Below, piece by piece: positions 470 to 17,144 of a stretch of 17,144 nucleotides of DNA. The notes beneath the pieces are model-generated. The model was not told the DNA's origin. It saw nothing but the letters and a program-made list of their open reading frames with translations, and did no database searches. How positions within the stretch are numbered: the first letter of the stretch is position 1; every line of letters begins with the position of its first letter. The translations under genes and the position numbers were made by a program. Source of the DNA: Nanopusillaceae archaeon (GTDB lineage: Archaea > Nanobdellota > Nanobdellia > Nanobdellales > Nanobdellaceae); contig JBMFJD010000013.1 of assembly GCA_049974095.1 (NCBI GenBank), positions 1 through 17,144 on the forward strand. The letters run 5' to 3'.

Positions 470-691
470 ATGGACAAAGAGAAGAAACTCAAAAATGTTA
501 CAACAACTGTACCAATAGAAATATATGAAAAAATTAAGGAAATGAAGATACCAATATCTAGACTTATATTACTAGGATACGAATCAGCCACTAAACAAAA
601 AGAAGAGGACAATCAAATAAGAGACTTACTAATAAGAATATATAACAAATTGTTAGATATTGAAGAATTAATAAAAAAGCCTAAATCTTAA
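470..691 (+). CDS. Ribbon-helix-helix (CopG/Arc/MetJ-like) DNA-binding protein, 73 aa
   Basis: The track ORF 452..691 starts at a TTG. The in-frame ATG at 470 sits 27 nt from the TATA-like box. MDKEKKLKNVTTTVPIEIYEKIKEMKIPISRLILLGYES fits a beta-strand/helix/turn/helix RHH pattern, followed by a coiled-coil-like tail. Confidence 0.55.
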   Translation: MDKEKKLKNVTTTVPIEIYEKIKEMKIPISRLILLGYESATKQKEEDNQIRDLLIRIYNKLLDIEELIKKPKS

Positions 692-1340
692 GAAAGTTAA
701 CATAGTTCCTATTCATATATAGTTTCTTTAAGAAATCATATAATTTTCTAATATTATTAACATCTCTTAGATTATACTCTACTAATTTATTAATATCGCT
801 ATATAAATCTTCTGTAAATTCATATTTTTCATCTAAATTTAACTCTTGAACTATATCTTTTAAAGAATAAAACTTAAAATCTCCTTTCTTTGCATACATA
901 TATATTGCTGTTGGTACAACAAGATCTAATATAGATACTATACTAAAGAATCTGGTCAGTGGTTTTATATTATACTTTCTAGCTTTATATATTAATAATG
1001 GAATATCTAAATACATTATACCATATCCAACGATTTGTCCAATTAACTTATTATATAATATTTTCCCAAGATGCTCTAATATTCTTTTTTCATCATCTAT
1101 ACCTCCATAAACAGTAAATGGTTCTAATTCATATTCATCAGTTACAATATTTCCACTATTTACAACATGGTTAACTGGTAATAACATAGCGACAGAGATT
1201 ATATGTACATTATCAAAACTAAGATTTTCATCAAATTTTGGATATGTTTCTATATCTATGAACCCGACATATCTATTATCATATAATCTAAACAAATTAT
1301 GAAAGTGTATATTCCAAGACCTTATCAACGCCTCATCCAT
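681..1340 (-). CDS. Stand-alone DEDDy-type 3'-5' exonuclease (RNase H-like fold; PolB exonuclease-domain / YprB-like), 219 aa
   Basis: Exo I-like motif YVGFIDIETYP. Exo II-like motif IVGYGIMYLDIPLLIYKARKYNI. Exo III-like motif YNLRDVNNIRKLYDFL (Y-x3-D). The first 19 codons of the track ORF (to 1397) run through the promoter region, so I start at the internal Met (MDEALIRSW, 1340), which is 28 nt from a TATA box. Confidence 0.6.
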   Translation of the reverse strand: MDEALIRSWNIHFHNLFRLYDNRYVGFIDIETYPKFDENLSFDNVHIISVAMLLPVNHVVNSGNIVTDEYELEPFTVYGGIDDEKRILEHLGKILYNKLIGQIVGYGIMYLDIPLLIYKARKYNIKPLTRFFSIVSILDLVVPTAIYMYAKKGDFKFYSLKDIVQELNLDEKYEFTEDLYSDINKLVEYNLRDVNNIRKLYDFLKKLYMNRNYVNFLKI

Positions 1341-1406
1341 TACTATATGATATAACAAATATTTATATGTGTTAAAGAATATAATTATATAAAACAAATA
1401 TTAATA
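1341..1406. promoter_or_regulatory. Divergent promoter region for the exonuclease and membrane-protein genes
   Basis: The element aaatatttatatgtgtt (1357-1373) is 28 nt from minus-strand ATG 1340. A second TATA-like box, ataattatataaaac, lies about 25 nt before plus-strand ATG 1407. Bases 1352-1373 are a perfect 22-bp reverse-complement match to 15740-15761. Confidence 0.5.
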
Positions 1407-3123: not shown

Positions 3124-3152
3124 AAAAATAATATGTGATCAACACATATAAA
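3124..3152 (-). promoter_or_regulatory. Promoter of the 358-aa gene with palindrome atatgtg-atcaa-cacatat
   Basis: Inverted repeat at 3131-3149 (7-bp arms, 5-nt spacer). The 13-mer aacacatataaat (3141-3153) is identical to 15740-15752. Read on the minus strand, tttatatgtgtt starts 29 nt before the ATG. Confidence 0.5.
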
Positions 3153-8583: not shown

Positions 8584-8937
8584 AGATACTATGAACTTAT
8601 AACAAAATACGGGTTACTACTTACATATACTTGGCACTTAATAATTTATTACTAGTAAATACTTATAAATAAACTGTTTAAATGAGACGAATTAGGTAGT
8701 ACTCATTACGCTATACGAAGAACCACAGACTTGGCACTGGAAAAAAAGATGATAAATGAAACAAATTAATTTTAACTTGGAATTAATACAGGGCACACCC
8801 CCTACTATATTATTTATTGCCAAATATTATAAGTTTTCCGCCAAATATGGTGGTATTAGCATAAACAGTATATGGATTATATAGTGCTAGAATAATTAAT
8901 AATATGGCTAGAAAAATATATAATAAAGTTATAGGCC
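8584..8937. other. About 350-bp non-coding region with short dispersed direct repeats
   Basis: No ORF longer than about 12 codons with an ATG on the minus strand. acttggcac occurs at about 8629 and about 8729. gccaaatat occurs at about 8819 and about 8840. There is a G/C island gggcacaccccc (8791-8802) and a 6-bp hairpin aatgag-N15-ctcatt. Confidence 0.5.
8908..8937 (-). terminator. Possible oligo-T terminator after the RAMP-like gene
   Basis: Immediately after the TGA, the minus strand reads ggcctataactttattatatatttttct. Archaeal termination typically uses T-runs. Confidence 0.3.
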
Positions 8938-9563: not shown

Positions 9564-9836
9564 CTAATATGTGTAAATACTCTTAAAAACCTTAAGGTTT
9601 GGTATTATTATATATAATTTTCCATCTACTTCAGATACAATACCCAATGATTTTAATATAGATATAACATCCTTATCAAATGAGTATGAATCTAGAAAGT
9701 ATATTACACCATCAAGAGTACCATAATTATCTATAAGCTTTTTAATAATATCCTGTATTTTTGGGTCTGTTATAAGATCAAGTAGTTTATATATATCTAT
9801 ATTATCTAAAATGAATAATCTATAACCTATAGACAT
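9564..9836 (-). CDS. Small winged-helix-like protein, 90 aa
   Basis: ISILKSLGIVSEVDGKLYIIIP resembles a recognition helix plus beta-wing. It overlaps the upstream gene by 17 nt and ends 5 nt before the next start. Confidence 0.4.
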   Translation of the reverse strand: MSIGYRLFILDNIDIYKLLDLITDPKIQDIIKKLIDNYGTLDGVIYFLDSYSFDKDVISILKSLGIVSEVDGKLYIIIPNLKVFKSIYTY

Positions 9837-11601
9837 CGTTTTCTAATTTAATTTCTTTTCTTGCAACCATTTCATTCAATATTCTGTCTAATACTAGTAA
9901 TACATTAGTTTCTCTCTTAATAATTATTTGCCTATTTTCTACCATATTTTGTATTATTTGTCTCAGTTCATTTAACCTTTTTGGACCAGTAGATAAAATA
10001 TTCTTTATAACACCTTCTAGATCTTTTTGTGATGATATAATATACTGTATCTTAATATTACAATATTTATCATAAAATACACCGAGGTATGATTTATAGA
10101 AATCTAATACATTCTTTGCCTGTAGTGTAGTATTCATAAAAGATAATAAATGCATTAATGAAAAAAATGCAATAGCATATTTTACTTCATCAATAGTAAT
10201 AGTAGTCCTATTATTTAATACAGCAAATATCTTAGCCATTTTACTTATTGTCTCCTTTCTTTCATATAAGAACTCATAGAATTGTGGATAAAATCTATTT
10301 ATATTTTTAGCCTCATCCTCAAATAACTTATCGAAATTACCAGTAATATTATAACTATTCAACATATGCTTAACAAATTGGATATAATCATACATATTAT
10401 ACCCAGATACCTGTAATGGTATATCTACAGCAATTGGTACTAAGAAATCTACTTTCTCAACATAGTATTGGAACATCCTTAACAAAGTATTATATAATGA
10501 TGTAAAGGACGAGAAATCTGTATACTTAGAAGATTTATATACTAATATTATATTTTTACCCTCATATAATGCTTTGTCTATCTTTATCTTTAATTCCTTA
10601 GTAGTCTGTTGTACATTATTAATTATCATATTATCATCAATAATAGACGGACTACTAGTAACCCTATAATGTAATATTGAAGCTATTTTATCAATATATA
10701 TTTGCTTGGCATCAATATACATTACAGAAAAGTTATAGAATAAATTGAATACTACAGGTAATGTGGTTAATACATCATCAATATCTAAATATGCTAAAAG
10801 ATGTAATAATTTCTCATCAGGTCTTAACTTTAATATATTTAACATATTATACATATTATACTCATAGTCGTCAATAATGTACAAACCTATCGCAAGATAA
10901 GCTTTCGTAACAACCTTCCTATGTATAATTTCCTGAGCAAGCTCCCTATCCATTTCAATAGCAATATATTTATATCTTAGCTTACTCTCCTTAGCAAACC
11001 TGTATAATTCTTCAGGTATTATTAAAGCAATATTACCCAATCTAGTATCTTCCCCATATATCTTTACCCCATTAAGAACAACCCTAGTAAATCCTACAAT
11101 AGATGATACATTACCCTTAAATGAACATACAGGACATGATAATGGAGGATATTTCTTTAATGATAATATATGATGACCTCTCTCACATGTAGATCTATTA
11201 ATGTATATCGATTCCATTACCACCCTATTTGGCTTAACATTTAATTCTAAAAGGTTATATACAGATTTTAATCTTTGATATAATGGATTCTTTAAATCTC
11301 TAATAATTAGGAATACCATAGGTATATTAGATAATATCTTTATTTTCTCATTTTCTAATGAGAATAATGCATATGATGAATTTTCAAGATAAGTTGTTAA
11401 ATCATTACCAGATAGCAAAAAGTTATATACATCATATAGTGGAGAATATTTATTATCTGGTTCATCACCCATGATATAATAATATTGATCTAGATCAATG
11501 AATAAAGAATTATTATATAATAAACCTACATGTATATCTGGTGGAGTATTTACAATAAAATTATATGGGTTCTTATTAGTAATTATTTTAGTAGGAAGCA
11601 T
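9820..11601 (-). CDS. Large Zn-ribbon protein, 593 aa. Either an MCM-like N-terminal domain with a degenerate ATPase and C-terminal wH, or an AEP primase-like N-terminus. Unresolved.
   Basis: C139/H143-H144/C156/C159 (STCERGHHILSLKKYPPLSCPVCSFKG) parallels the MCM Zn module of the neighbouring MCM (HEKCGYEF...ICPKCGESG) and is roughly collinear with it. There is no intact Walker A or B; the closest is IILVYKSSKYT. It has a lid-like helix ISKMAKIFAVLNNRTTITIDEVKYAIAFF and a wH-like C-terminus ...MVARKEIKLENDVYRL. Alternatively, LFIDLD (hhhDhD) and ERGHHIL resemble AEP primase motifs I and II. Confidence 0.35.
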   Translation of the reverse strand: MLPTKIITNKNPYNFIVNTPPDIHVGLLYNNSLFIDLDQYYYIMGDEPDNKYSPLYDVYNFLLSGNDLTTYLENSSYALFSLENEKIKILSNIPMVFLIIRDLKNPLYQRLKSVYNLLELNVKPNRVVMESIYINRSTCERGHHILSLKKYPPLSCPVCSFKGNVSSIVGFTRVVLNGVKIYGEDTRLGNIALIIPEELYRFAKESKLRYKYIAIEMDRELAQEIIHRKVVTKAYLAIGLYIIDDYEYNMYNMLNILKLRPDEKLLHLLAYLDIDDVLTTLPVVFNLFYNFSVMYIDAKQIYIDKIASILHYRVTSSPSIIDDNMIINNVQQTTKELKIKIDKALYEGKNIILVYKSSKYTDFSSFTSLYNTLLRMFQYYVEKVDFLVPIAVDIPLQVSGYNMYDYIQFVKHMLNSYNITGNFDKLFEDEAKNINRFYPQFYEFLYERKETISKMAKIFAVLNNRTTITIDEVKYAIAFFSLMHLLSFMNTTLQAKNVLDFYKSYLGVFYDKYCNIKIQYIISSQKDLEGVIKNILSTGPKRLNELRQIIQNMVENRQIIIKRETNVLLVLDRILNEMVARKEIKLENDVYRL

Positions 11602-12430
11602 ATCCTAATAATGGATTGGCAACACTAATAAAATATTTTAAGGCCTCTTCAATATACTGTTCCTTAACAATATTATCTCCATAACTTCTAGCAATTGCCT
11701 TCGCTAACCTTATTATTGTATTTACCCTCCTACCAGTAAAATATAAACCAGTATATGATATATTTAGATTAACCCTAATATTTTCTGGTACCTGTACATT
11801 AATACTTCTAACCGTGTTCAAATAATTCAATAGCTCATTATTATCAAAAGTATATGTCTCTTCAGTATGAGAACCAAACGATCTATTTAATAAAAATATT
11901 AGATCAAGTCTATCAATAACAGTACCTGGTAAATCAAGTTCATCTAAATAGTTCTTACTCTCAAAGAAATCCTTTCTTGGGTTAGCTGCAGCAAGTACTG
12001 CAAGATTAACATCATAAGATACATCAACCTTTGCCTTTTCAATAGTTACTTTAAGATCCTCTAATAACTCATTTAATGAATTTTTGAATGTCTTATTAGC
12101 CTTATCAAGCTCATCTATACATAATATATTATTTACTTTAGATATTGTACCATGTACAAACCCTACTTTTCTATCAGGATATCCATATAATCCAGGTATT
12201 GTAGTAGTTTGTGCATTAACATATAGAGAACCAGGTATATTACTAACAAATTTTAGGATATGAGTCTTACCAGTACCTGGTATCCCGTATAGTAATATAT
12301 GTATCGAATCTCTGAAGAATTGACTCTTACCAATAGATATTAATTGGTAAGCAATACCTAACCTTATCTTAGCATAAATATTACCCTTGAGTGAAGGGAA
12401 CAAACCATTAATAAGATCCTGGAAATCCAT
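11588..12430 (-). CDS. MCM-family AAA+ ATPase core without the N-terminal (Zn/OB) or C-terminal wH domains, 280 aa
   Basis: Walker A LLYGIPGTGKTHIL. Walker B ILCIDELDKA (MCM IDEFDK type). VTIEKAKVDVSYDVNLAVLAAANP matches KAGI...AAANP (pre-sensor-1 hairpin and sensor 1). VIDRLDLIFLL is the SRFDLIF arginine-finger region. TGRRVNTIIRLAKAIARS is the sensor 2 / lid. The protein starts where the MCM ATPase domain normally starts (FPSLKGNIYAKIRLGIAYQL). It overlaps the downstream gene by 14 nt. Confidence 0.8.
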   Translation of the reverse strand: MDFQDLINGLFPSLKGNIYAKIRLGIAYQLISIGKSQFFRDSIHILLYGIPGTGKTHILKFVSNIPGSLYVNAQTTTIPGLYGYPDRKVGFVHGTISKVNNILCIDELDKANKTFKNSLNELLEDLKVTIEKAKVDVSYDVNLAVLAAANPRKDFFESKNYLDELDLPGTVIDRLDLIFLLNRSFGSHTEETYTFDNNELLNYLNTVRSINVQVPENIRVNLNISYTGLYFTGRRVNTIIRLAKAIARSYGDNIVKEQYIEEALKYFISVANPLLGYASY

Positions 12431-12724: not shown

Positions 12725-12729
12725 AACAC

Positions 12730-12769: not shown

Positions 12770-14902
12770 ATGGTAGTAGGATATGAAGAAATTATTAATA
12801 AAATAGATCTAAAATCTCTTTTTTTAAAATATATAGCAGTACAGAAGAAGGTAGATAGAGAGATGATGTTTTTACAATATATGGATGAAACCCCAGTAAA
12901 AGAAGCATTATTATTATATGAGAAAATAAAGGATGATCTATCAGATTCTATTAAAAAGAATAAATCTGTTGTTGCCATTCCTGCTTCAAAGCTTTTTGAA
13001 TCGTTTGGAGTATTAGCTTTAGATATTTTAAATGATGCAGAAACATATGAATTGTTCACAAAATTTATGGAATATATATTAGACTGGAGATTTCACTCTG
13101 CATATCCAATAAATGTTACTATTGCAAAATTACCAGCAGAAGAGGAGGAAGATCCAAAAAGAAGAGCATTTACAAAGGAGATAAGATTAATAAATAAGAG
13201 CATGTTAAACAGGGTAATACAAATACCTGCAATAGTAGTAGCAACTACAGAGAATTATATTCATGTAGCATCAATAAAATATAGACATGAGAAATGTGGG
13301 TATGAATTTGAAGTACCACAAGGACCATTTACAAAAGAAAAACCAAAGATATGTCCAAAATGTGGGGAATCTGGTAAATTCATAGAGGTAGAATATAAAA
13401 AGACAAATGGTAAGAAGTTATTATTATCAGATTTACCAGAAAACCTGAAGGTAGGAAAACCTGGAGTAATAATGGCCCTCATGTATAGAGATTATTTATT
13501 TGATCCATACAATGAAGTAAATGTATATCCAGGTATGCGTGCATATATAGTTGGTATAGTAAAATCTGCAAAAAAGGAAAAAGAGAAGGAAGAACAATTA
13601 TACATAGATGTATTATGGATAGAACCATTAGAAGAAAAGAAGATTGAATTAACAGATAAGGATAAAGAACAATTAAAAAACATGTTACCAGAGGGTGATG
13701 TTATAAAGTTCATTGCAGATACTATGTTCCCAAATATTTATGGTACACAATACTCATTTATTAAACAAGCAATATTATTAGCAATAGTATCTGGATATGA
13801 TAAGATAGATGATAACATAAAGAAATATTATAAACTAGACAGGTTAAATATACATGTGTTAATGGTAGGTGGACCTGGTACTGGTAAATCAACAATATTA
13901 GAAAGAGTAGTAAGGTTAGTACCAAGATCTTCATACATTACATTAACAACCGCAACAACAACAGGTTTAACAGCATCTGTTAGAAAAGATCCTGTATTGG
14001 GAGATTGGGTATTAGAAGTTGGTGCCATACCTCTAGTAGCTAATGGTGTTGCATGTATAGATGAGATCGATAAAATACCAAAACAAGAAATAACAAAACT
14101 ACATGAAGTAATGGAACAGCAAACAATTACAATACATAAAGCAAACATTCATACATTAATAGAATCTCCAGTATCAATTATAGCAGCAGCAAATCCAAAG
14201 TTTGGAAAATGGGATATACATCAAGACATATTAGCACAAATAGATCTACCACAAACAATATTAGACAGATTTGATCTAATATTTGCAATAATACCAGAAC
14301 AACAAGAAATGAAGGTAATTGGTAAAGAGATAATTAGAAATGTAAATATTAGTGAAACACCAACAATCGATGATCAAACATTAACAAAATATATAGTATA
14401 TGCTAGGAGTATCATACCTGAATGGACAGATCCTGCAATAGGAGAACTAGATAAATTATATGAAGAATTATCTAGTAAACCTGGTATATATATTACAACA
14501 AGACAGATAAATACAATAGTAAGGTTGGCAATTGCATCAGCAAAGGCAAGGTTATCAAAATATATAACAGAGTGGGATGTACAAAAAGCAAAAGAGATAT
14601 ATCTTTCATCCTTATATAGTATAGGAGTAGATCCATTTACACACCAGGTAGATATAACAATAAAAGAAACTGGATTTTCAAGATCAGAAGCAACATTAGC
14701 ACAATTAGTAGTAGATTCTATAAAAGAATTAGAAAAAGATTTTCCAAATGGTGTACCAATATCAGAAATTGTAAATTCGATAAAGAATAAAAATGTTGAT
14801 GTAGATGAAGAATCTGTAAAATATATAATAGAAAAATTGAAGAAGGTTGGTGAAGTATATGAATCTGGAGAAAATAAAGTAAAAAGAATAGTAAAAAGCT
14901 AA
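12770..14902 (+). CDS. mcm: Full-length archaeal-type MCM replicative helicase, 710 aa
   Basis: N-terminal domain with Zn module HEKCGYEF...KICPKCGESG. Walker A VLMVGGPGTGKST. Walker B VACIDEIDK. ITIHKANIHTLIESPVSIIAAANP. Arginine finger LDRFDLIFAI. Sensor 2 / lid ITTRQINTIVRLAIASAKA. C-terminal wH-like tail. Length is typical for archaeal MCM and gives no sign of an intein. Confidence 0.92.
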   Translation: MVVGYEEIINKIDLKSLFLKYIAVQKKVDREMMFLQYMDETPVKEALLLYEKIKDDLSDSIKKNKSVVAIPASKLFESFGVLALDILNDAETYELFTKFMEYILDWRFHSAYPINVTIAKLPAEEEEDPKRRAFTKEIRLINKSMLNRVIQIPAIVVATTENYIHVASIKYRHEKCGYEFEVPQGPFTKEKPKICPKCGESGKFIEVEYKKTNGKKLLLSDLPENLKVGKPGVIMALMYRDYLFDPYNEVNVYPGMRAYIVGIVKSAKKEKEKEEQLYIDVLWIEPLEEKKIELTDKDKEQLKNMLPEGDVIKFIADTMFPNIYGTQYSFIKQAILLAIVSGYDKIDDNIKKYYKLDRLNIHVLMVGGPGTGKSTILERVVRLVPRSSYITLTTATTTGLTASVRKDPVLGDWVLEVGAIPLVANGVACIDEIDKIPKQEITKLHEVMEQQTITIHKANIHTLIESPVSIIAAANPKFGKWDIHQDILAQIDLPQTILDRFDLIFAIIPEQQEMKVIGKEIIRNVNISETPTIDDQTLTKYIVYARSIIPEWTDPAIGELDKLYEELSSKPGIYITTRQINTIVRLAIASAKARLSKYITEWDVQKAKEIYLSSLYSIGVDPFTHQVDITIKETGFSRSEATLAQLVVDSIKELEKDFPNGVPISEIVNSIKNKNVDVDEESVKYIIEKLKKVGEVYESGENKVKRIVKS

Positions 14903-15722: not shown

Positions 15723-15761
15723 TCATAATATATGTAAAAAACACATATAAATATTTGTTAT
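15723..15761 (-). promoter_or_regulatory. Promoter of the 187-aa membrane-protein gene; carries the 22-bp element shared with 1352-1373
   Basis: 15740-15761 is the exact reverse complement of 1352-1373. There is also a palindrome tatatgt-N7-acatata (15729-15749). Confidence 0.5.
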
Positions 15762-16123
15762 TGCTCAGGCCTATTAGTATCTATGTTAGAGGATGTATTA
15801 GTAAGATTCGATACTTCTCCCTTGATCATATTAAGTAAAACATTAAGATTTGTAGCTTTTTTATCTAAATAATCCATTGTAGTTCTAAAATCTTGTACCT
15901 CATCTTTAAGTTTATGTAATTCTGCATATACCTCTTCATATTTCTGAGTTATAGAGGCTAACAAATTTTTTATTACCTCAACCATTTCCTTTAATTCATG
16001 CGCATATAATATATAATCGACTCCCGCATTGAATATATCTGTTGGTGTATAGTCCTCTTCTAATAGTTTCTTTACTAATCCCTCCCTTTTTTTACCTAGA
16101 TAGACAGATAAGTGGCTACCCAT
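15758..16123 (-). CDS. Ribbon-helix-helix-like DNA-binding protein with a coiled-coil C-terminal half, 121 aa
   Basis: HLSVYLGKKREGLVKKLLEEDYTPTDIFNAGVDYILYAHE fits strand/helix/turn/helix of RHH. The rest is heptad-like (QKYEEVYAELHKLKDEVQDF). A TATA-like aatttataaaga lies about 28 nt upstream, abutting repeat R1. Confidence 0.5.
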   Translation of the reverse strand: MGSHLSVYLGKKREGLVKKLLEEDYTPTDIFNAGVDYILYAHELKEMVEVIKNLLASITQKYEEVYAELHKLKDEVQDFRTTMDYLDKKATNLNVLLNMIKGEVSNLTNTSSNIDTNRPEQ

Positions 16124-16151
16124 ATATAGATATTATACAATTATCTTTATA

Positions 16152-16256
16152 AATTGTTATCACTGTTTACGAGGAATATACCCAACTACCATGCTTCCCA
16201 AAAAATATATATAATATATATTTTTTTACGCGTAAGGTTTTGTGTAGAACACATAT
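16152..16256 (+). repeat. About 105-bp repeat unit R1 (box1 - A/T spacer - box2)
   Basis: aattgttatcactgtttacgaggaatatacc...cttccc / aaaaaatatatataatatatattttttt / acgcgtaaggttttgtgtagaacacatatt. Aligns by eye with R2 at roughly three-quarters identity. Confidence 0.8.
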
Positions 16257-16274
16257 TATTATAGTAAAATATAG

Positions 16275-16380
16275 AATTGTTATTACTCTTTACGGGTATT
16301 ATACCTTCCATTGAGTTTCCCAAAGGAAATATATATATATTATTTTTTTACGCATGGGGTTTTGTGTAGAATATGTGTTC
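16275..16380 (+). repeat. About 105-bp repeat unit R2, direct copy of R1 about 123 bp downstream
   Basis: aattgttattactctttacgggtattatacc...gtttccc / aaaggaaatatatatatattattttttt / acgcatggggttttgtgtagaatatgtgtt. Confidence 0.8.
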
Positions 16381-16716
16381 TATTATATATTATTATTATA
16401 TAAATATTATAATATAATATAATAAAAATATTTATATATTATTATATAACTATTTATTACTAATAAATAGTAAAAAAATCTCTTTTAATATATATTTTTA
16501 ATAAATATTAATATGTGTTTATTATTATATTATATAATATTATTTATTATTATAACAAATATTTAACAAATATTAAAAAGGTATATATAAAGGAAATTTT
16601 TTACTATTTATTAGTAATAAATAATAACAATATTATTTATAAATATTATATAATATATTATTAATAATTATTATTTTTTAATAATAATTTTTTATATAAT
16701 AATAAATAATAATAAT
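16381..16716. promoter_or_regulatory. About 336-bp extreme A+T core; candidate DNA-unwinding element of a replication origin
   Basis: My hand count gives about 16 G/C in 336 nt, or about 95% A+T. No ORF. It is bracketed by R2 and inverted R3. Confidence 0.55.
16451..16623. repeat. Perfect 27-bp inverted repeat inside the A+T core (arms 16451-16477 and 16597-16623, 119-bp spacer)
   Basis: tatttattactaataaatagtaaaaaa versus ttttttactatttattagtaataaata, which are exact reverse complements. Each arm also holds its own 9-bp palindrome, tatttatta-N-taataaata. Confidence 0.85.
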
Positions 16717-16820
16717 AACATGTGTTTAACACAACAGGGTCTTCGTGAAAAATTATATAATATATATTTTTTTTCGGAGACCCCCTGGTAGGTCATATTC
16801 CTGGTAATAAGTAGTAACAT
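16717..16820 (-). repeat. About 105-bp repeat unit R3, inverted copy of R1/R2
   Basis: Its reverse complement reads atgttactacttattaccaggaatatgacctaccagggggtctcc / gaaaaaaaatatatattatataattttt / cacgaagaccctgttgtgttaaacacatgtt. It is collinear with R1 at roughly 65-80% identity per segment by eye. Confidence 0.7.
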
Positions 16821-16917
16821 AAGGACATATATCTTGAACGGATGTAACATCCACAAAAGTCCCTTTTAGTGTCCCTTCAAAAAGTATGAAGTGACCTTCA
16901 GGTCCCTTGGATCCCAT
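16753..16917 (-). CDS. Possible small ORF, 54 aa, below the ORF-track cutoff
   Basis: Hand translation gives MGSKGPEGHFILFEGTLKGTFVDVTSVQDICPYVTTYYQEYDLPGGLRKKIYII. It lies in a locally G/C-richer patch. Its 3' third overlaps repeat R3. The promoter is only weak. It could instead be non-coding binding sites (gtccctt x3). Confidence 0.25.
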   Translation of the reverse strand: MGSKGPEGHFILFEGTLKGTFVDVTSVQDICPYVTTYYQEYDLPGGLRKKIYII

Positions 16918-16988
16918 CAAAAGAACCAATAACTTATTATCCAGTGATAGTAGCTAAGACTTATAAATAATTATAACATAATAATATT

Positions 16989-17144
16989 ATGATAAAAGCA
17001 AAGAAAGTAATAGGAAAGGTTCGGGATATTGAATATGTAGTTGATGATATGGATGATAAGGAAGACAAACCTATAGATAAACCTATCCACCTACTAATCG
17101 ATCCCTACTACGAACCATCAAGACTTCCACCAATAAAAGGAAAA
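16989..17144 (+). CDS. Hypothetical protein, N-terminal 52 aa; continues beyond the window end
   Basis: The ATG at 16989 is about 25 nt downstream of cttataaataa. The frame is open to the window end: MIKAKKVIGKVRDIEYVVDDMDDKEDKPIDKPIHLLIDPYYEPSRLPPIKGK. Confidence 0.5.
   Translation, partial: MIKAKKVIGKVRDIEYVVDDMDDKEDKPIDKPIHLLIDPYYEPSRLPPIKGK

What the first reader, a model, noticed from the sequence alone, without database searches (positions are those of the whole stretch)
16152..16820. Nested palindromic architecture: two direct and one inverted ~105-bp repeat around a ~95% A+T core with a perfect 27-bp inverted repeat
R1 (16152-16256) and R2 (16275-16380) are direct copies. R3 (16717-16820) is the same unit inverted. 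Each unit has a G/C-containing box, an A/T spacer and a second box. Between R2 and R3 lie about 336 bp with only about 16 G/C. Inside that core, 16451-16477 and 16597-16623 are exact reverse complements, and each arm is itself palindromic. The symmetry centres of the outer repeats (about 16548) and inner repeats (about 16537) nearly coincide.
This is the layout expected of an origin: initiator-binding repeats in opposite orientation flanking a DNA-unwinding element. It lies about 1.2 kb from the MCM gene and next to an RHH gene whose TATA box abuts R1.
Alternative 1: a head-to-head junction of terminal inverted repeats of a linear genome, arising from a replicative intermediate or assembly circularisation.
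Alternative 2: a MITE-like insertion with ~105-bp TIRs.
Basis: partly seen in the sequence, partly recalled or inferred. Interest (0 to 1): 0.8.

Follow-up and report, generated by a model that had tools for sequence, protein, structure and literature searches.

The report
Candidate replication origin, nanoarchaeal MCM element
The nested repeats are real and conserved in related DNA from other hot-spring samples, and they most likely mark where an MCM-helicase-carrying mobile element of tiny parasitic archaea (Nanopusillaceae) starts copying its DNA, although this is inferred from sequence only.

Summary
R1 and R2 are direct copies (77% identity). R3 is the same unit inverted (72%). The 336-bp core has 16 G/C. 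The two 27-nt arms are exact reverse complements.

The window is a whole 17,144-nt contig of a Nanopusillaceae MAG. It carries an MCM gene, a truncated MCM paralogue and otherwise orphan genes.

Two other assemblies also hold the region.
- A JGI contig has a symmetric 2+2 layout. The window's R3 is a recombinant of its two right-hand units.
- A third contig keeps the same central ~180-bp palindrome. There the palindrome is flanked by an unrelated 84-bp repeat family, again two direct and one inverted.

The core is the contig's compositional outlier (4.8% GC; next lowest 20.5%). It lies in the largest non-coding gap, between divergently transcribed genes, 1.25 kb from MCM.

A MITE, a terminal-repeat junction and an RNA gene were each tested and are not supported.

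Best reading, at 0.6: a bidirectional replication origin with swappable recognition repeats around an unwinding region.

Caveats:
- There is no canonical ORB motif.
- No Orc1/Cdc6 or Rep gene was recognised.
- The RHH call is unconfirmed.
- The region is rich in promoter-like motifs.
- It lies at a gene-module junction.

The parts
16152..16256 (+). Repeat unit R1. Composition: box A (TGTTATCACTGTTTACGAGGAATATACC), box A' (..CTTCCCAAA), an A/T palindromic spacer at 16200-16228, and box B (ACGCGTAAGGTTTTGTGTAGAACACAT).
   Evidence: 77% identical to R2 and 72% to inverted R3. 83% identical to its orthologue J_U1 in L088. The box patterns are absent elsewhere in the window.
16275..16380 (+). Repeat unit R2, a direct copy of R1. 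Start-to-start spacing is 122-123 bp. Its A/T spacer is 16327-16349.
   Evidence: 86% identical to its orthologue J_U2.
16717..16820 (-). Repeat unit R3, inverted. Its A/T spacer is 16748-16774. It is a chimera of the two right-hand units of the JGI relative.
   Evidence: The outer half is 88% identical to J_U4 and 67% to J_U3. The inner half is 91% identical to J_U3 and 65% to J_U4. The alignment break falls in the A/T spacer.
16381..16716 (.). A+T core with 16 G/C in 336 bp; the candidate DNA-unwinding region.
   Evidence: Lowest GC and lowest nearest-neighbour duplex stability in the contig. The outer parts (16385-16450 and 16625-16716) are poorly conserved and carry indels. The centre is conserved.
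16451..16623 (.). Conserved central imperfect palindrome. Its outer stem is the exact 27-nt arm pair 16451-16477 / 16597-16623.
   Evidence: Exact arms. DNA fold z-score -5.8 in the window and -9.9 in L088. 88-89% identical to L088 and L098, against 75% at third codon positions of neighbouring genes. 70 consensus pairs, two of which changed on both sides and stayed complementary.
16575..16593 (+). Promoter-like box AAAAAGGTATATATAAAGG inside the core. An imperfect mirror copy, CTCTTTTAATATATATTTTT, lies at 16480-16499.
   Evidence: Identical in the window, L088 and L098. It resembles the TATA region upstream of the MCM gene. Related copies sit inside the S units of L098 (families D3 and I7).
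16511..16519 (+). ATATGTGTT motif. It also occurs at 16371-16379 (+, inner end of R2) and 16248-16256 (-, inner end of R1).
   Evidence: There are seven copies in the window. Three lie about 25-30 nt upstream of gene starts (1365, 3141, 15740), one lies at 12725 (-) upstream of a possible short ORF, and three lie in this region.
16145..16152 (-). TATA box of the left flanking gene (15758-16123, minus strand, 121 aa). The mRNA would be leaderless.
   Evidence: Read from the sequence. Conserved in L088.
16961..16968 (+). TATA box of the right flanking gene, which starts at 16989, runs off the contig end, and is 119 aa in L088.
   Evidence: Conserved in L088, L098 and L101.
15758..16123 (-). Left flanking gene, 121 aa. 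It has a short N-terminal helix and a long coiled coil, and is transcribed away from the region.
   Evidence: 84% amino-acid identity to the L088 orthologue.
12770..14902 (+). Full-length MCM helicase gene, 710 aa, with OB, P-loop, lid and winged-helix domains.
   Evidence: Pfam MCM E 7e-66. The nearest other MCMs are 40% identical and lie in housekeeping chromosomal contexts.
11588..12430 (-). Truncated MCM paralogue, 280 aa, with the AAA+ core and lid only.
   Evidence: Pfam MCM E 1.4e-29. Conserved in all related contigs.

Best explanation
The region is most likely the origin of bidirectional replication of an MCM-encoding mobile element associated with Nanopusillaceae (Nanoarchaeota). The element could be a plasmid, a virus or a captured genomic island.

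Proposed mechanism:
1. The large composite repeat units (R type here, S type in a relative) are arrays of binding sites for an origin-recognition protein. (Inferred.)
2. Their opposite orientation on the two sides directs two helicase-loading events of opposite polarity onto the 336-bp, 95% A+T core. (Inferred by analogy with archaeal oriC.)
3. The core is the easiest place in the element to melt. (Low stability is shown; melting is inferred.)
4. The conserved central palindrome, with its 27-bp arms and two outward-facing promoter-like boxes, is a second, sequence-specific component. It could be a symmetric protein-binding site, or a cruciform or transcription-activated opening site. (Inferred.)
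5. The element's own MCM, encoded 1.25 kb away, would be the loaded helicase. (Inferred.)

Shown: the anatomy, its uniqueness in the contig, its conservation and its variation among relatives.
Inferred: the binding proteins, the melting and the initiation.
For: 1. Composition. The core is 4.8% GC over 336 bp. The next-lowest stretch is 20.5% and the median is 28.6%. The three least stable 100-bp windows all lie in the core. In the JGI relative the core is 10.4% against 19.6%.

2. Non-coding space. The region sits in an 865-bp gap (976 bp in L088). The next largest gap in this tightly packed contig is 354 bp. The flanking genes are transcribed away from it from canonical TATA boxes.

3. Conserved layout, variable repeats.
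- L088 has two direct and two inverted units.
- The window's R3 is a recombinant of those two right-hand units, with the crossover in the A/T spacer.
- L098 keeps the same central palindrome and right flank. There the palindrome is flanked by an unrelated 84-bp repeat: two direct copies, 94% identical over 84 nt (100% over the first 77), and one inverted copy, 83-87%.
- S vs R identity is 52%, no better than shuffled sequence.

4. Constraint. The central palindrome is 88-89% identical between the window and the two relatives. Third codon positions of seven neighbouring genes average 75%. Two palindrome positions changed on both arms and stayed complementary.

5. Neighbourhood. The only functionally recognisable genes in 20 kb are a full MCM and a truncated MCM paralogue.

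6. Precedent. In the archaeal plasmids pTN2, pP12-1 and pT26-2, the largest and most A+T-rich intergenic region, with many direct and inverted repeats, lies next to the helicase or Rep gene and small regulator genes. Those regions are the predicted origins (PMC2926602). Archaeal origins are typically an A+T-rich unwinding region flanked by conserved repeats (PMC4010727).
Against: - No canonical ORB or mini-ORB. The pattern TTTCCASTGGAAA with up to 3 mismatches gives 2 matches where 4.1 are expected by chance.
- No Orc1/Cdc6, Rep, primase or other initiator was recognised in the window or in the 20-kb relative. This breaks the usual pairing of an origin with a neighbouring initiator gene.
- The cumulative GC-skew minimum is at about 12.4 kb in the window and 18.6 kb in the relative, not here. 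It follows gene orientation, and both contigs are incomplete.
- The units are 105-122 bp, far larger than known 13-36-bp ORBs or about 20-bp iterons.
- The region carries motifs shared with the element's promoters. Transcriptional control would also explain those.
- The 119-aa gene to the right has quite different left neighbours in two other contigs. The region therefore lies at a recombination junction.
- There is no read-level or experimental evidence of initiation.
Confidence: 0.6

Rival explanations
1. The region is a transcriptional control hub or a centromere-like partition site. The repeat units and the palindromic arms would be operator or centromere sites for small DNA-binding proteins of the element, such as the flanking 121-aa and 119-aa proteins. 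These would control the divergent flanking genes or segregate the element. The A+T richness would simply be intergenic composition.
For: - R1 abuts the TATA box of the 121-aa gene.
- ATATGTGTT occurs at three to four gene promoters and three times in the region.
- The core box GGTATATATAAAGG resembles the MCM promoter.
- A 16-nt copy of the palindromic arm, in the L088 spelling, lies in the second-largest intergenic gap at 8646-8661.
- Known plasmid centromeres are arrays of direct and inverted repeats bound by small dimeric proteins. (My own knowledge.)
Against: - No ParA, ParM or TubZ-type NTPase was recognised in 20 kb.
- R2, R3 and the extra unit in L088 are 120-300 bp from any gene promoter.
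- Operators or centromeres do not require a 336-bp stretch at 4.8% GC, and other intergenic gaps here are not nearly as A+T-rich.
- The copy at 8646 is not conserved in L088.
- The RHH fold of the 121-aa protein is not confirmed.
Confidence: 0.17
2. The region is a recombination, resolution or terminal structure. It could be a head-to-head junction of terminal inverted repeats, a telomere-resolution site of a linear element, or a site-specific inversion or dimer-resolution site lying at a module junction.
For: - The architecture is a nested palindrome.
- Unit number changes by recombination between units.
- One related contig (L089) ends inside R1 in a fold-back.
- The 119-aa gene module has other left neighbours elsewhere, so a recombination boundary lies within about 100-170 bp of R3.
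Against: - The arms are far from identical: left vs right units are 63-81% alike, and the central palindrome is about 80% self-complementary. Terminal repeats and hairpin-resolution sites are normally near-perfect.
- Three independent assemblies read through the structure in the same orientation into different unique flanks.
- The two arms of the L089 fold-back differ from each other, and one resembles the window's variant. That is what a strain-mixing assembly chimera at the A/T palindrome looks like, not a hairpin end.
- No recombinase, protelomerase, terminal protein or protein-primed polymerase was recognised.
Confidence: 0.08
3. The region is a MITE-like insertion with about 105-bp terminal inverted repeats (R2...R3), or a locus of small structured RNAs encoded by the units.
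For: Inverted units flank a non-coding core. The units contain A/T palindromes and short dyads.
Against: - There are no further copies in the window or in any of the 101 loci fetched.
- No genuine hits in viral contigs. The single match is in a giant-virus MAG, was judged chance and was not examined further.
- Only four chance hits, all in unrelated coding DNA, among 241 million metagenome records.
- No target-site duplication is evident in the flanks.
- No Rfam family matches.
- RNAalifold finds no consensus structure in one orientation and only -2.2 kcal/mol, without compensatory changes, in the other.
Confidence: 0.03

Closest known systems
Archaeal chromosomal origins of the ORB type. Examples are Pyrococcus oriC (two inverted 34-bp ORBs plus mini-ORBs and A+T-rich regions; PMC1904270), Sulfolobus oriC1 (three ORBs) and Aeropyrum pernix oriC1 (ORBs in pairs on both sides of the unwinding element). 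The last two are from my own knowledge.
   Same: An A+T-rich unwinding region is flanked by repeats in opposite orientation, in 2+1 or 2+2 layouts. It lies next to replication genes, with divergent transcription.
   Different: - The units are 105-122 bp (or 84 bp) composites, not 13-36-bp boxes.
- The TTCC..GGAA mini-ORB dyad is not enriched. Box A' (CCACCAGGTTTCCCAAAGGGAA in L088) only loosely recalls a C-string plus dyad, with different spacing.
- There is no adjacent orc1/cdc6 gene.
- There is an additional conserved ~175-bp palindrome in the centre.
Predicted origins of the hyperthermophilic archaeal plasmids pTN2, pP12-1 and pT26-2 (PMC2926602).
   Same: Each is the largest and most A+T-rich intergenic region, with many direct and inverted repeats. 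Each lies next to the helicase or replication cassette and small putative regulators. All are predicted only, from sequence.
   Different: - Those were supported by a cumulative GC-skew minimum. Here the skew is uninformative.
- The helicase here is an MCM.
- The repeat sequences are unrelated.
- The host lineage is different (Nanoarchaeota).
Iteron-type theta origins of bacterial plasmids. (My own knowledge.)
   Same: Repeated recognition units lie beside an A+T-rich melting region. Unit number varies, and unit families can be swapped between relatives in a way that resembles incompatibility groups.
   Different: - Iterons are about 17-22 bp, usually four or more direct copies, and are bound by an adjacent Rep.
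- Here there are few, very long units in mirror arrangement.
- No Rep gene was recognised.
Herpes simplex virus oriS/oriL and the SV40 and papillomavirus core origins. (My own knowledge.)
   Same: A central A+T sequence lies at the centre of a palindrome, flanked by initiator or helicase binding boxes in inverted orientation, with an extra box on one side. Transcription-factor and promoter elements act as auxiliary parts.
   Different: These are eukaryotic viral systems with unrelated proteins (UL9, large T antigen, E1) and much shorter elements. The resemblance is an analogy of layout only.

Membership tests
Archaeal ORB/Orc1-Cdc6-type origin | An A+T-rich unwinding element flanked by repeats in inverted orientation | tested here: met
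   Core of 4.8% GC flanked by R1, R2 (+) and R3 (-). The layout is 2+2 in L088 and 2+1 in L098.
Archaeal ORB/Orc1-Cdc6-type origin | ORB or mini-ORB consensus (TTCC..GGAA dyad, as in the P. furiosus ORBs of PMC1904270) | tested here: not met
   TTTCCASTGGAAA with up to 3 mismatches gives 2 matches in the window against 4.1 expected. Only one, with 3 mismatches, lies in R2. The ORB of the actual host is unknown, so a lineage-specific variant is not excluded.
Archaeal ORB/Orc1-Cdc6-type origin | An adjacent orc1/cdc6 (or whiP) initiator gene | tested here: not met
   No Orc1/Cdc6 hit in Pfam, NCBIfam or PHROGs for any ORF of the window or of the 20-kb relative. Only MCM-family AAA+ proteins were found.
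Archaeal ORB/Orc1-Cdc6-type origin | Replication initiates here (2D gels, marker frequency, autonomous-replication assay) | not testable with these tools
   No reads and no experiments were available.
Iteron-type plasmid origin | Several short (~20 bp) direct repeats bound by an adjacent Rep initiator | tested here: not met
   The units are 105-122 bp (84 bp in L098), with two direct copies per side. No Rep was recognised.
MITE / non-autonomous transposon | Multiple dispersed copies with terminal inverted repeats and target-site duplications | tested here: not met
   No other copies in the window or in any fetched locus. No genuine copies in viral contigs or metagenome contigs. No target-site duplication is seen in the flanks. 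The relevant host genomes may be poorly represented in those collections.
Junction of terminal inverted repeats / hairpin telomere site of a linear genome | Near-identical arms, with reads or contigs ending at the symmetry centre | tested here: not met
   The arms are 63-81% alike (units) and about 80% alike (central palindrome). The window, L088 and L098 all read through. The L089 fold-back has unequal arms. Read termini could not be examined.
Plasmid partition centromere (parS/parC type) | A repeat array next to a par operon, i.e. an NTPase plus a centromere-binding protein | tested here: inconclusive
   Repeats are present. No ParA, ParM or TubZ was detected. The flanking 121-aa protein is a helix plus coiled coil, and the RHH fold is not confirmed. 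Most ORFs are orphans, so absence is weak evidence.
Structured RNA gene | A conserved secondary structure with compensatory changes, or an Rfam match | tested here: not met
   No Rfam hit. No consensus structure for the units in either orientation.

The most novel reading that the evidence does not exclude
This is an Orc1/Cdc6-independent archaeal origin. Long, exchangeable recognition modules (R or S units) and a conserved palindromic core would be read by element-encoded proteins. Candidates are the truncated MCM paralogue, the adjacent orphan 593-aa zinc-finger protein, or the small flanking proteins. These would load the element's own MCM. That would be a new initiator-replicator system. 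It may sit on an element captured in a nanoarchaeal chromosome, where it could serve as a chromosomal origin.
Probability: 0.15. Interest if true: 0.8.

Novelty: new variant of a known kind. Interest (0 to 1): 0.5.

Why it matters
How MCM helicases encoded by archaeal viruses and plasmids are brought to their own origins is unknown. No replication origin has been described for any mobile element of Nanoarchaeota, nor, to my knowledge, mapped for their chromosomes.

This locus gives a compact, testable candidate.
- It has defined repeat units, a defined palindrome and a defined melting region.
- A natural experiment already exists: relatives with 3 or 4 units, and one with a different repeat family around the same core.
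- Finding which protein co-varies with the R-to-S swap would point directly to the origin-recognition factor.

If the region proves to be only a regulatory or partition site, it is still the main cis-acting control region of a new element family.

Tried and rejected
- **Close DNA relatives in GenBank phage and PLSDB plasmid collections:** none. A tblastn of an orphan protein against phages also found nothing. Viral MCMs there are at most 30% identical.
- **MCM-based locus searches:** genome and viral collections gave only distant (34% or less) chromosomal or viral MCMs.
- **MITE test:** box-pattern scans of viral contigs and metagenome contigs gave only chance hits. The core-arm pattern in viral contigs gave none.
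- **RNA gene:** Rfam and tRNA scans were empty. RNAalifold on the seven units in both orientations gave no supported structure.
- **Canonical ORB:** not enriched.
- **GC skew:** the minima follow gene orientation, so it is uninformative.
- **RHH fold of the 121-aa protein:** no PDB sequence match. The AlphaFold monomer is all-helical. A monomer model cannot show a dimer-dependent strand, so the result is inconclusive.
- **593-aa orphan as initiator:** no family or PDB hit. The AlphaFold model has pLDDT 38, so no fold search was run. hhalign against MCM gives only 23% probability, over the zinc-finger region.
- **Circularity:** there are no terminal overlaps in the window or the 20-kb relative, and the ORFs at the window ends do not join.
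- **Literature:** searches for nanoarchaeal viruses or plasmids with MCM found nothing matching.
Full report
**1. The observation**

- R1 and R2 are direct copies: 77% identity over 123 columns, E 4e-18.
- R3 is the same unit on the other strand: 72% over 108, E 6e-16.
- There is no further copy in the 17,144 bases.
- Consensus scans of the two G/C-containing boxes find only these copies, where shuffles give essentially none.
- The 336 bp between R2 and R3 contain 16 G/C.
- 16451-16477 and 16597-16623 are exact reverse complements. Each arm contains a 19-nt palindrome.

These arms are the outer stem of a larger imperfect palindrome, 16451-16623. It is 80% self-complementary over 175 nt and its DNA-fold z-score is -5.8.

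The core is a unique outlier at 4.8% GC. The next-lowest 336-bp window is 20.5% and the median is 28.6%. The three least stable 100-bp duplex windows all lie in the core.

The 865-bp non-coding gap that holds the whole structure is by far the largest in a tightly packed contig; the next is 354 bp.

**2. Where the window comes from**

The window is an entire 17,144-nt contig of a MAG labelled Nanopusillaceae archaeon (NCBI proteins MGC9133545-60). It has no terminal repeats. ORFs run off both ends and do not join, so it is a fragment.

Its gene content is as follows.
- A full-length MCM, 12770-14902.
- A 280-aa MCM paralogue with only the AAA+ core and lid, 11588-12430.
- Otherwise orphan ORFs.

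The nearest other MCMs are only 40% identical. They sit among ribosomal and translation genes on chromosomal contigs of small archaea. This fits an element that once recruited a host MCM. No integrase, ParA, Orc1/Cdc6, Rep or capsid protein was recognised.

**3. Relatives**

Only a handful of assemblies hold this element.

*The JGI contig (20,162 nt; L088 plus L090).*
- It is collinear with the window at 82-86% nucleotide identity.
- It spans the region with four units: two direct on the left and two inverted on the right.
- The window's single right-hand unit is a chimera. Its outer half matches the JGI outer unit (88% vs 67%). Its inner half matches the JGI inner unit (91% vs 65%). The crossover lies in the A/T palindromic spacer.

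*The third contig, L098, from another Nanopusillaceae MAG.*
- It keeps the central palindrome (89% identical to the window, nearly identical to the JGI copy) and the same right flank.
- The flanking repeats are a different 84-bp family ("S"). There are two direct copies, 94% identical over 84 nt (100% over the first 77), and one inverted copy at 83-87%.
- S is no more similar to the R units than shuffled sequence: 52% against a shuffle mean of 49% and maximum of 55%.

So the geometry is kept while the repeat sequence is exchanged. I regard this as the strongest sign that the mirror arrangement itself is functional.

*Conservation.* The central palindrome is more conserved (88-89%) than third codon positions of seven neighbouring genes (mean 75%). 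Two of its 70 consensus pairs changed on both arms and stayed complementary. One of these is the A-to-G change in both 27-nt arms.

*A contig that breaks in the region.* L089 ends inside R1 in a fold-back whose two arms differ. One arm resembles the window's variant. This is an assembly chimera at the A/T palindrome.

**4. Interpretation**

The best-supported reading is a bidirectional replication origin. Repeat units of opposite orientation would act as recognition and loading modules on either side of an exceptionally meltable core. The origin would lie next to the element's replication genes and between divergently transcribed genes.

This matches two descriptions in the literature.
- The general grammar of archaeal origins (PMC4010727; PMC1904270).
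- The way origins were predicted for the archaeal plasmids pTN2, pP12-1 and pT26-2 (PMC2926602).

The region is not a member of the ORB/Orc1 class as currently defined.
- The mini-ORB dyad is not enriched.
- No orc1/cdc6 gene is nearby.
- The units are three to eight times longer than ORBs.
- There is an extra conserved palindrome in the centre.

Who reads the repeats is unknown. The candidates are host Orc1/Cdc6, the MCM paralogue, the orphan 593-aa protein and the small flanking proteins.
- The 593-aa protein has a C-x3-HH...C-x2-C motif and a weak, 23%-probability profile match to the MCM zinc-finger region.
- The RHH assignment of the 121-aa protein could not be confirmed.

**5. Complications**

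The region is rich in motifs that also occur at the element's promoters.
- ATATGTGTT occurs seven times in the window. Three copies lie at TATA position upstream of gene starts, one lies upstream of a possible short ORF, and three lie in the region.
- The core box AAAAAGGTATATATAAAGG is identical in all three relatives. It resembles the MCM promoter and recurs in the S units.

These could be auxiliary origin elements, for example transcription-assisted opening. They could equally mean that the region is mainly regulatory or a partition site.

The 119-aa gene to the right has quite different left neighbours in two other contigs. In L101 it is a 317-aa ORF with only a 213-bp gap. In L099 it is a glycosyltransferase. 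Homology to the window begins about 100 nt upstream of the ATG. The region therefore sits at a module junction. The MCM block may be a replicon cassette or an inserted island.

GC skew is uninformative.

**6. Rivals**

- A MITE is not supported. There are no dispersed copies anywhere I could search, and no target-site duplication.
- A terminal-repeat junction or hairpin-resolution site is unlikely. The arms are only 63-81% alike. Three assemblies read through in one orientation. No matching enzymes were found.
- An RNA gene is not supported.

**7. Verdict**

The structure is real, conserved and non-random. It is most likely an origin of replication of a new MCM-encoding nanoarchaeal element (confidence about 0.6). 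It is a new variant of a known kind. Its unusual features are very long composite units, exchangeable repeat families around a conserved palindromic core, and no recognisable initiator gene. Function remains inferred. Read-depth profiling, long-read closure and binding assays would decide it.

Noticed in passing
L098:1-573 (NCBI JBMFJL010000066.1): A relative has the same central A+T palindrome, flanked by an unrelated 84-bp repeat family (two direct copies, one inverted) in place of the R units. The contig starts inside the array, so there may be more copies, and the left-flank genes are unknown.
   Followed up: partly
L089:13400-13585 (NCBI WPAA01076692.1): The contig ends in a fold-back. 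After the A/T palindromic spacer of R1 it runs back through a diverged reverse complement of R1 and the start of the 121-aa gene. The returning arm resembles the window's variant. This looks like a strain-mixing assembly chimera at a palindrome.
   Followed up: partly
L101:2229-3755 and L099:286-1905: The conserved 119/120-aa gene module (119, 139 and 116 aa, then a GT1 glycosyltransferase) has other left neighbours in other contigs: a 317-aa orphan ORF in L101 and a GT2 glycosyltransferase in L099. Homology to the window starts about 100 nt upstream of the ATG (window ~16900). The MCM block may therefore be a cassette or an insertion. L101's first ORF has a PAC2-like N-terminus fused to the GT1 domain.
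   Followed up: partly
window 8646-8661: TTATTACTAGTAAATA, the L088 spelling of the core's palindromic arm, occurs once more, in the second-largest intergenic gap (8584-8937) next to a TATA-like CTTATAAATAA. It is not present at the equivalent place in L088, and about 0.05 such matches are expected by chance.
   Followed up: partly
window 16840-16915 (L088:14185-14255; L098:585-680; L101:3185-3320): Between R3 and the right-hand promoter lie small dyads (GGATGTAACATCC; CCCTTCAA..TTGAAGGG in the relatives) and repeated (A)GGTCCC(T/A) motifs. Their number varies between relatives, and one hairpin is inverted in L101. The function is unknown; they could be operators for the 119-aa gene.
   Followed up: no
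window 9820-11601 (-) and 11588-12430 (-): A truncated MCM paralogue (AAA+ core and lid only) overlaps by 14 nt an orphan 593-aa ORF. That ORF has a C-x3-HH...C-x2-C motif and a likely C-terminal helical or winged-helix region. Only three homologous clusters exist among 5.8 billion clustered proteins. The profile match to the MCM N-terminal zinc-finger region is weak (23%).
   Followed up: partly
window 1365-1373, 3141-3149, 15740-15748 (and L091:80-100): Several genes share an almost identical promoter, ACAAATATTTATATGTGTT, placed so that the TATA box is about 26 nt upstream of the ATG. This implies leaderless mRNAs and a strong element-specific promoter consensus.
   Followed up: partly
window 681-1397 (-): The 238-aa ORF has weak hits to the RNase H-like superfamily (Pfam RNase_H_2, E 0.045) and to a PHROG DNA polymerase family (E 0.005). 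It may be a DnaQ-like exonuclease.
   Followed up: no
P0145 (L088:12980-13345, orthologue of window 15758-16123): IMG names this 121-aa protein 'predicted nuclease with TOPRIM domain'. Pfam, NCBIfam, PDB sequence search and the AlphaFold model give no support for a Toprim domain. The protein looks like a short helix plus a long coiled coil.
   Followed up: yes
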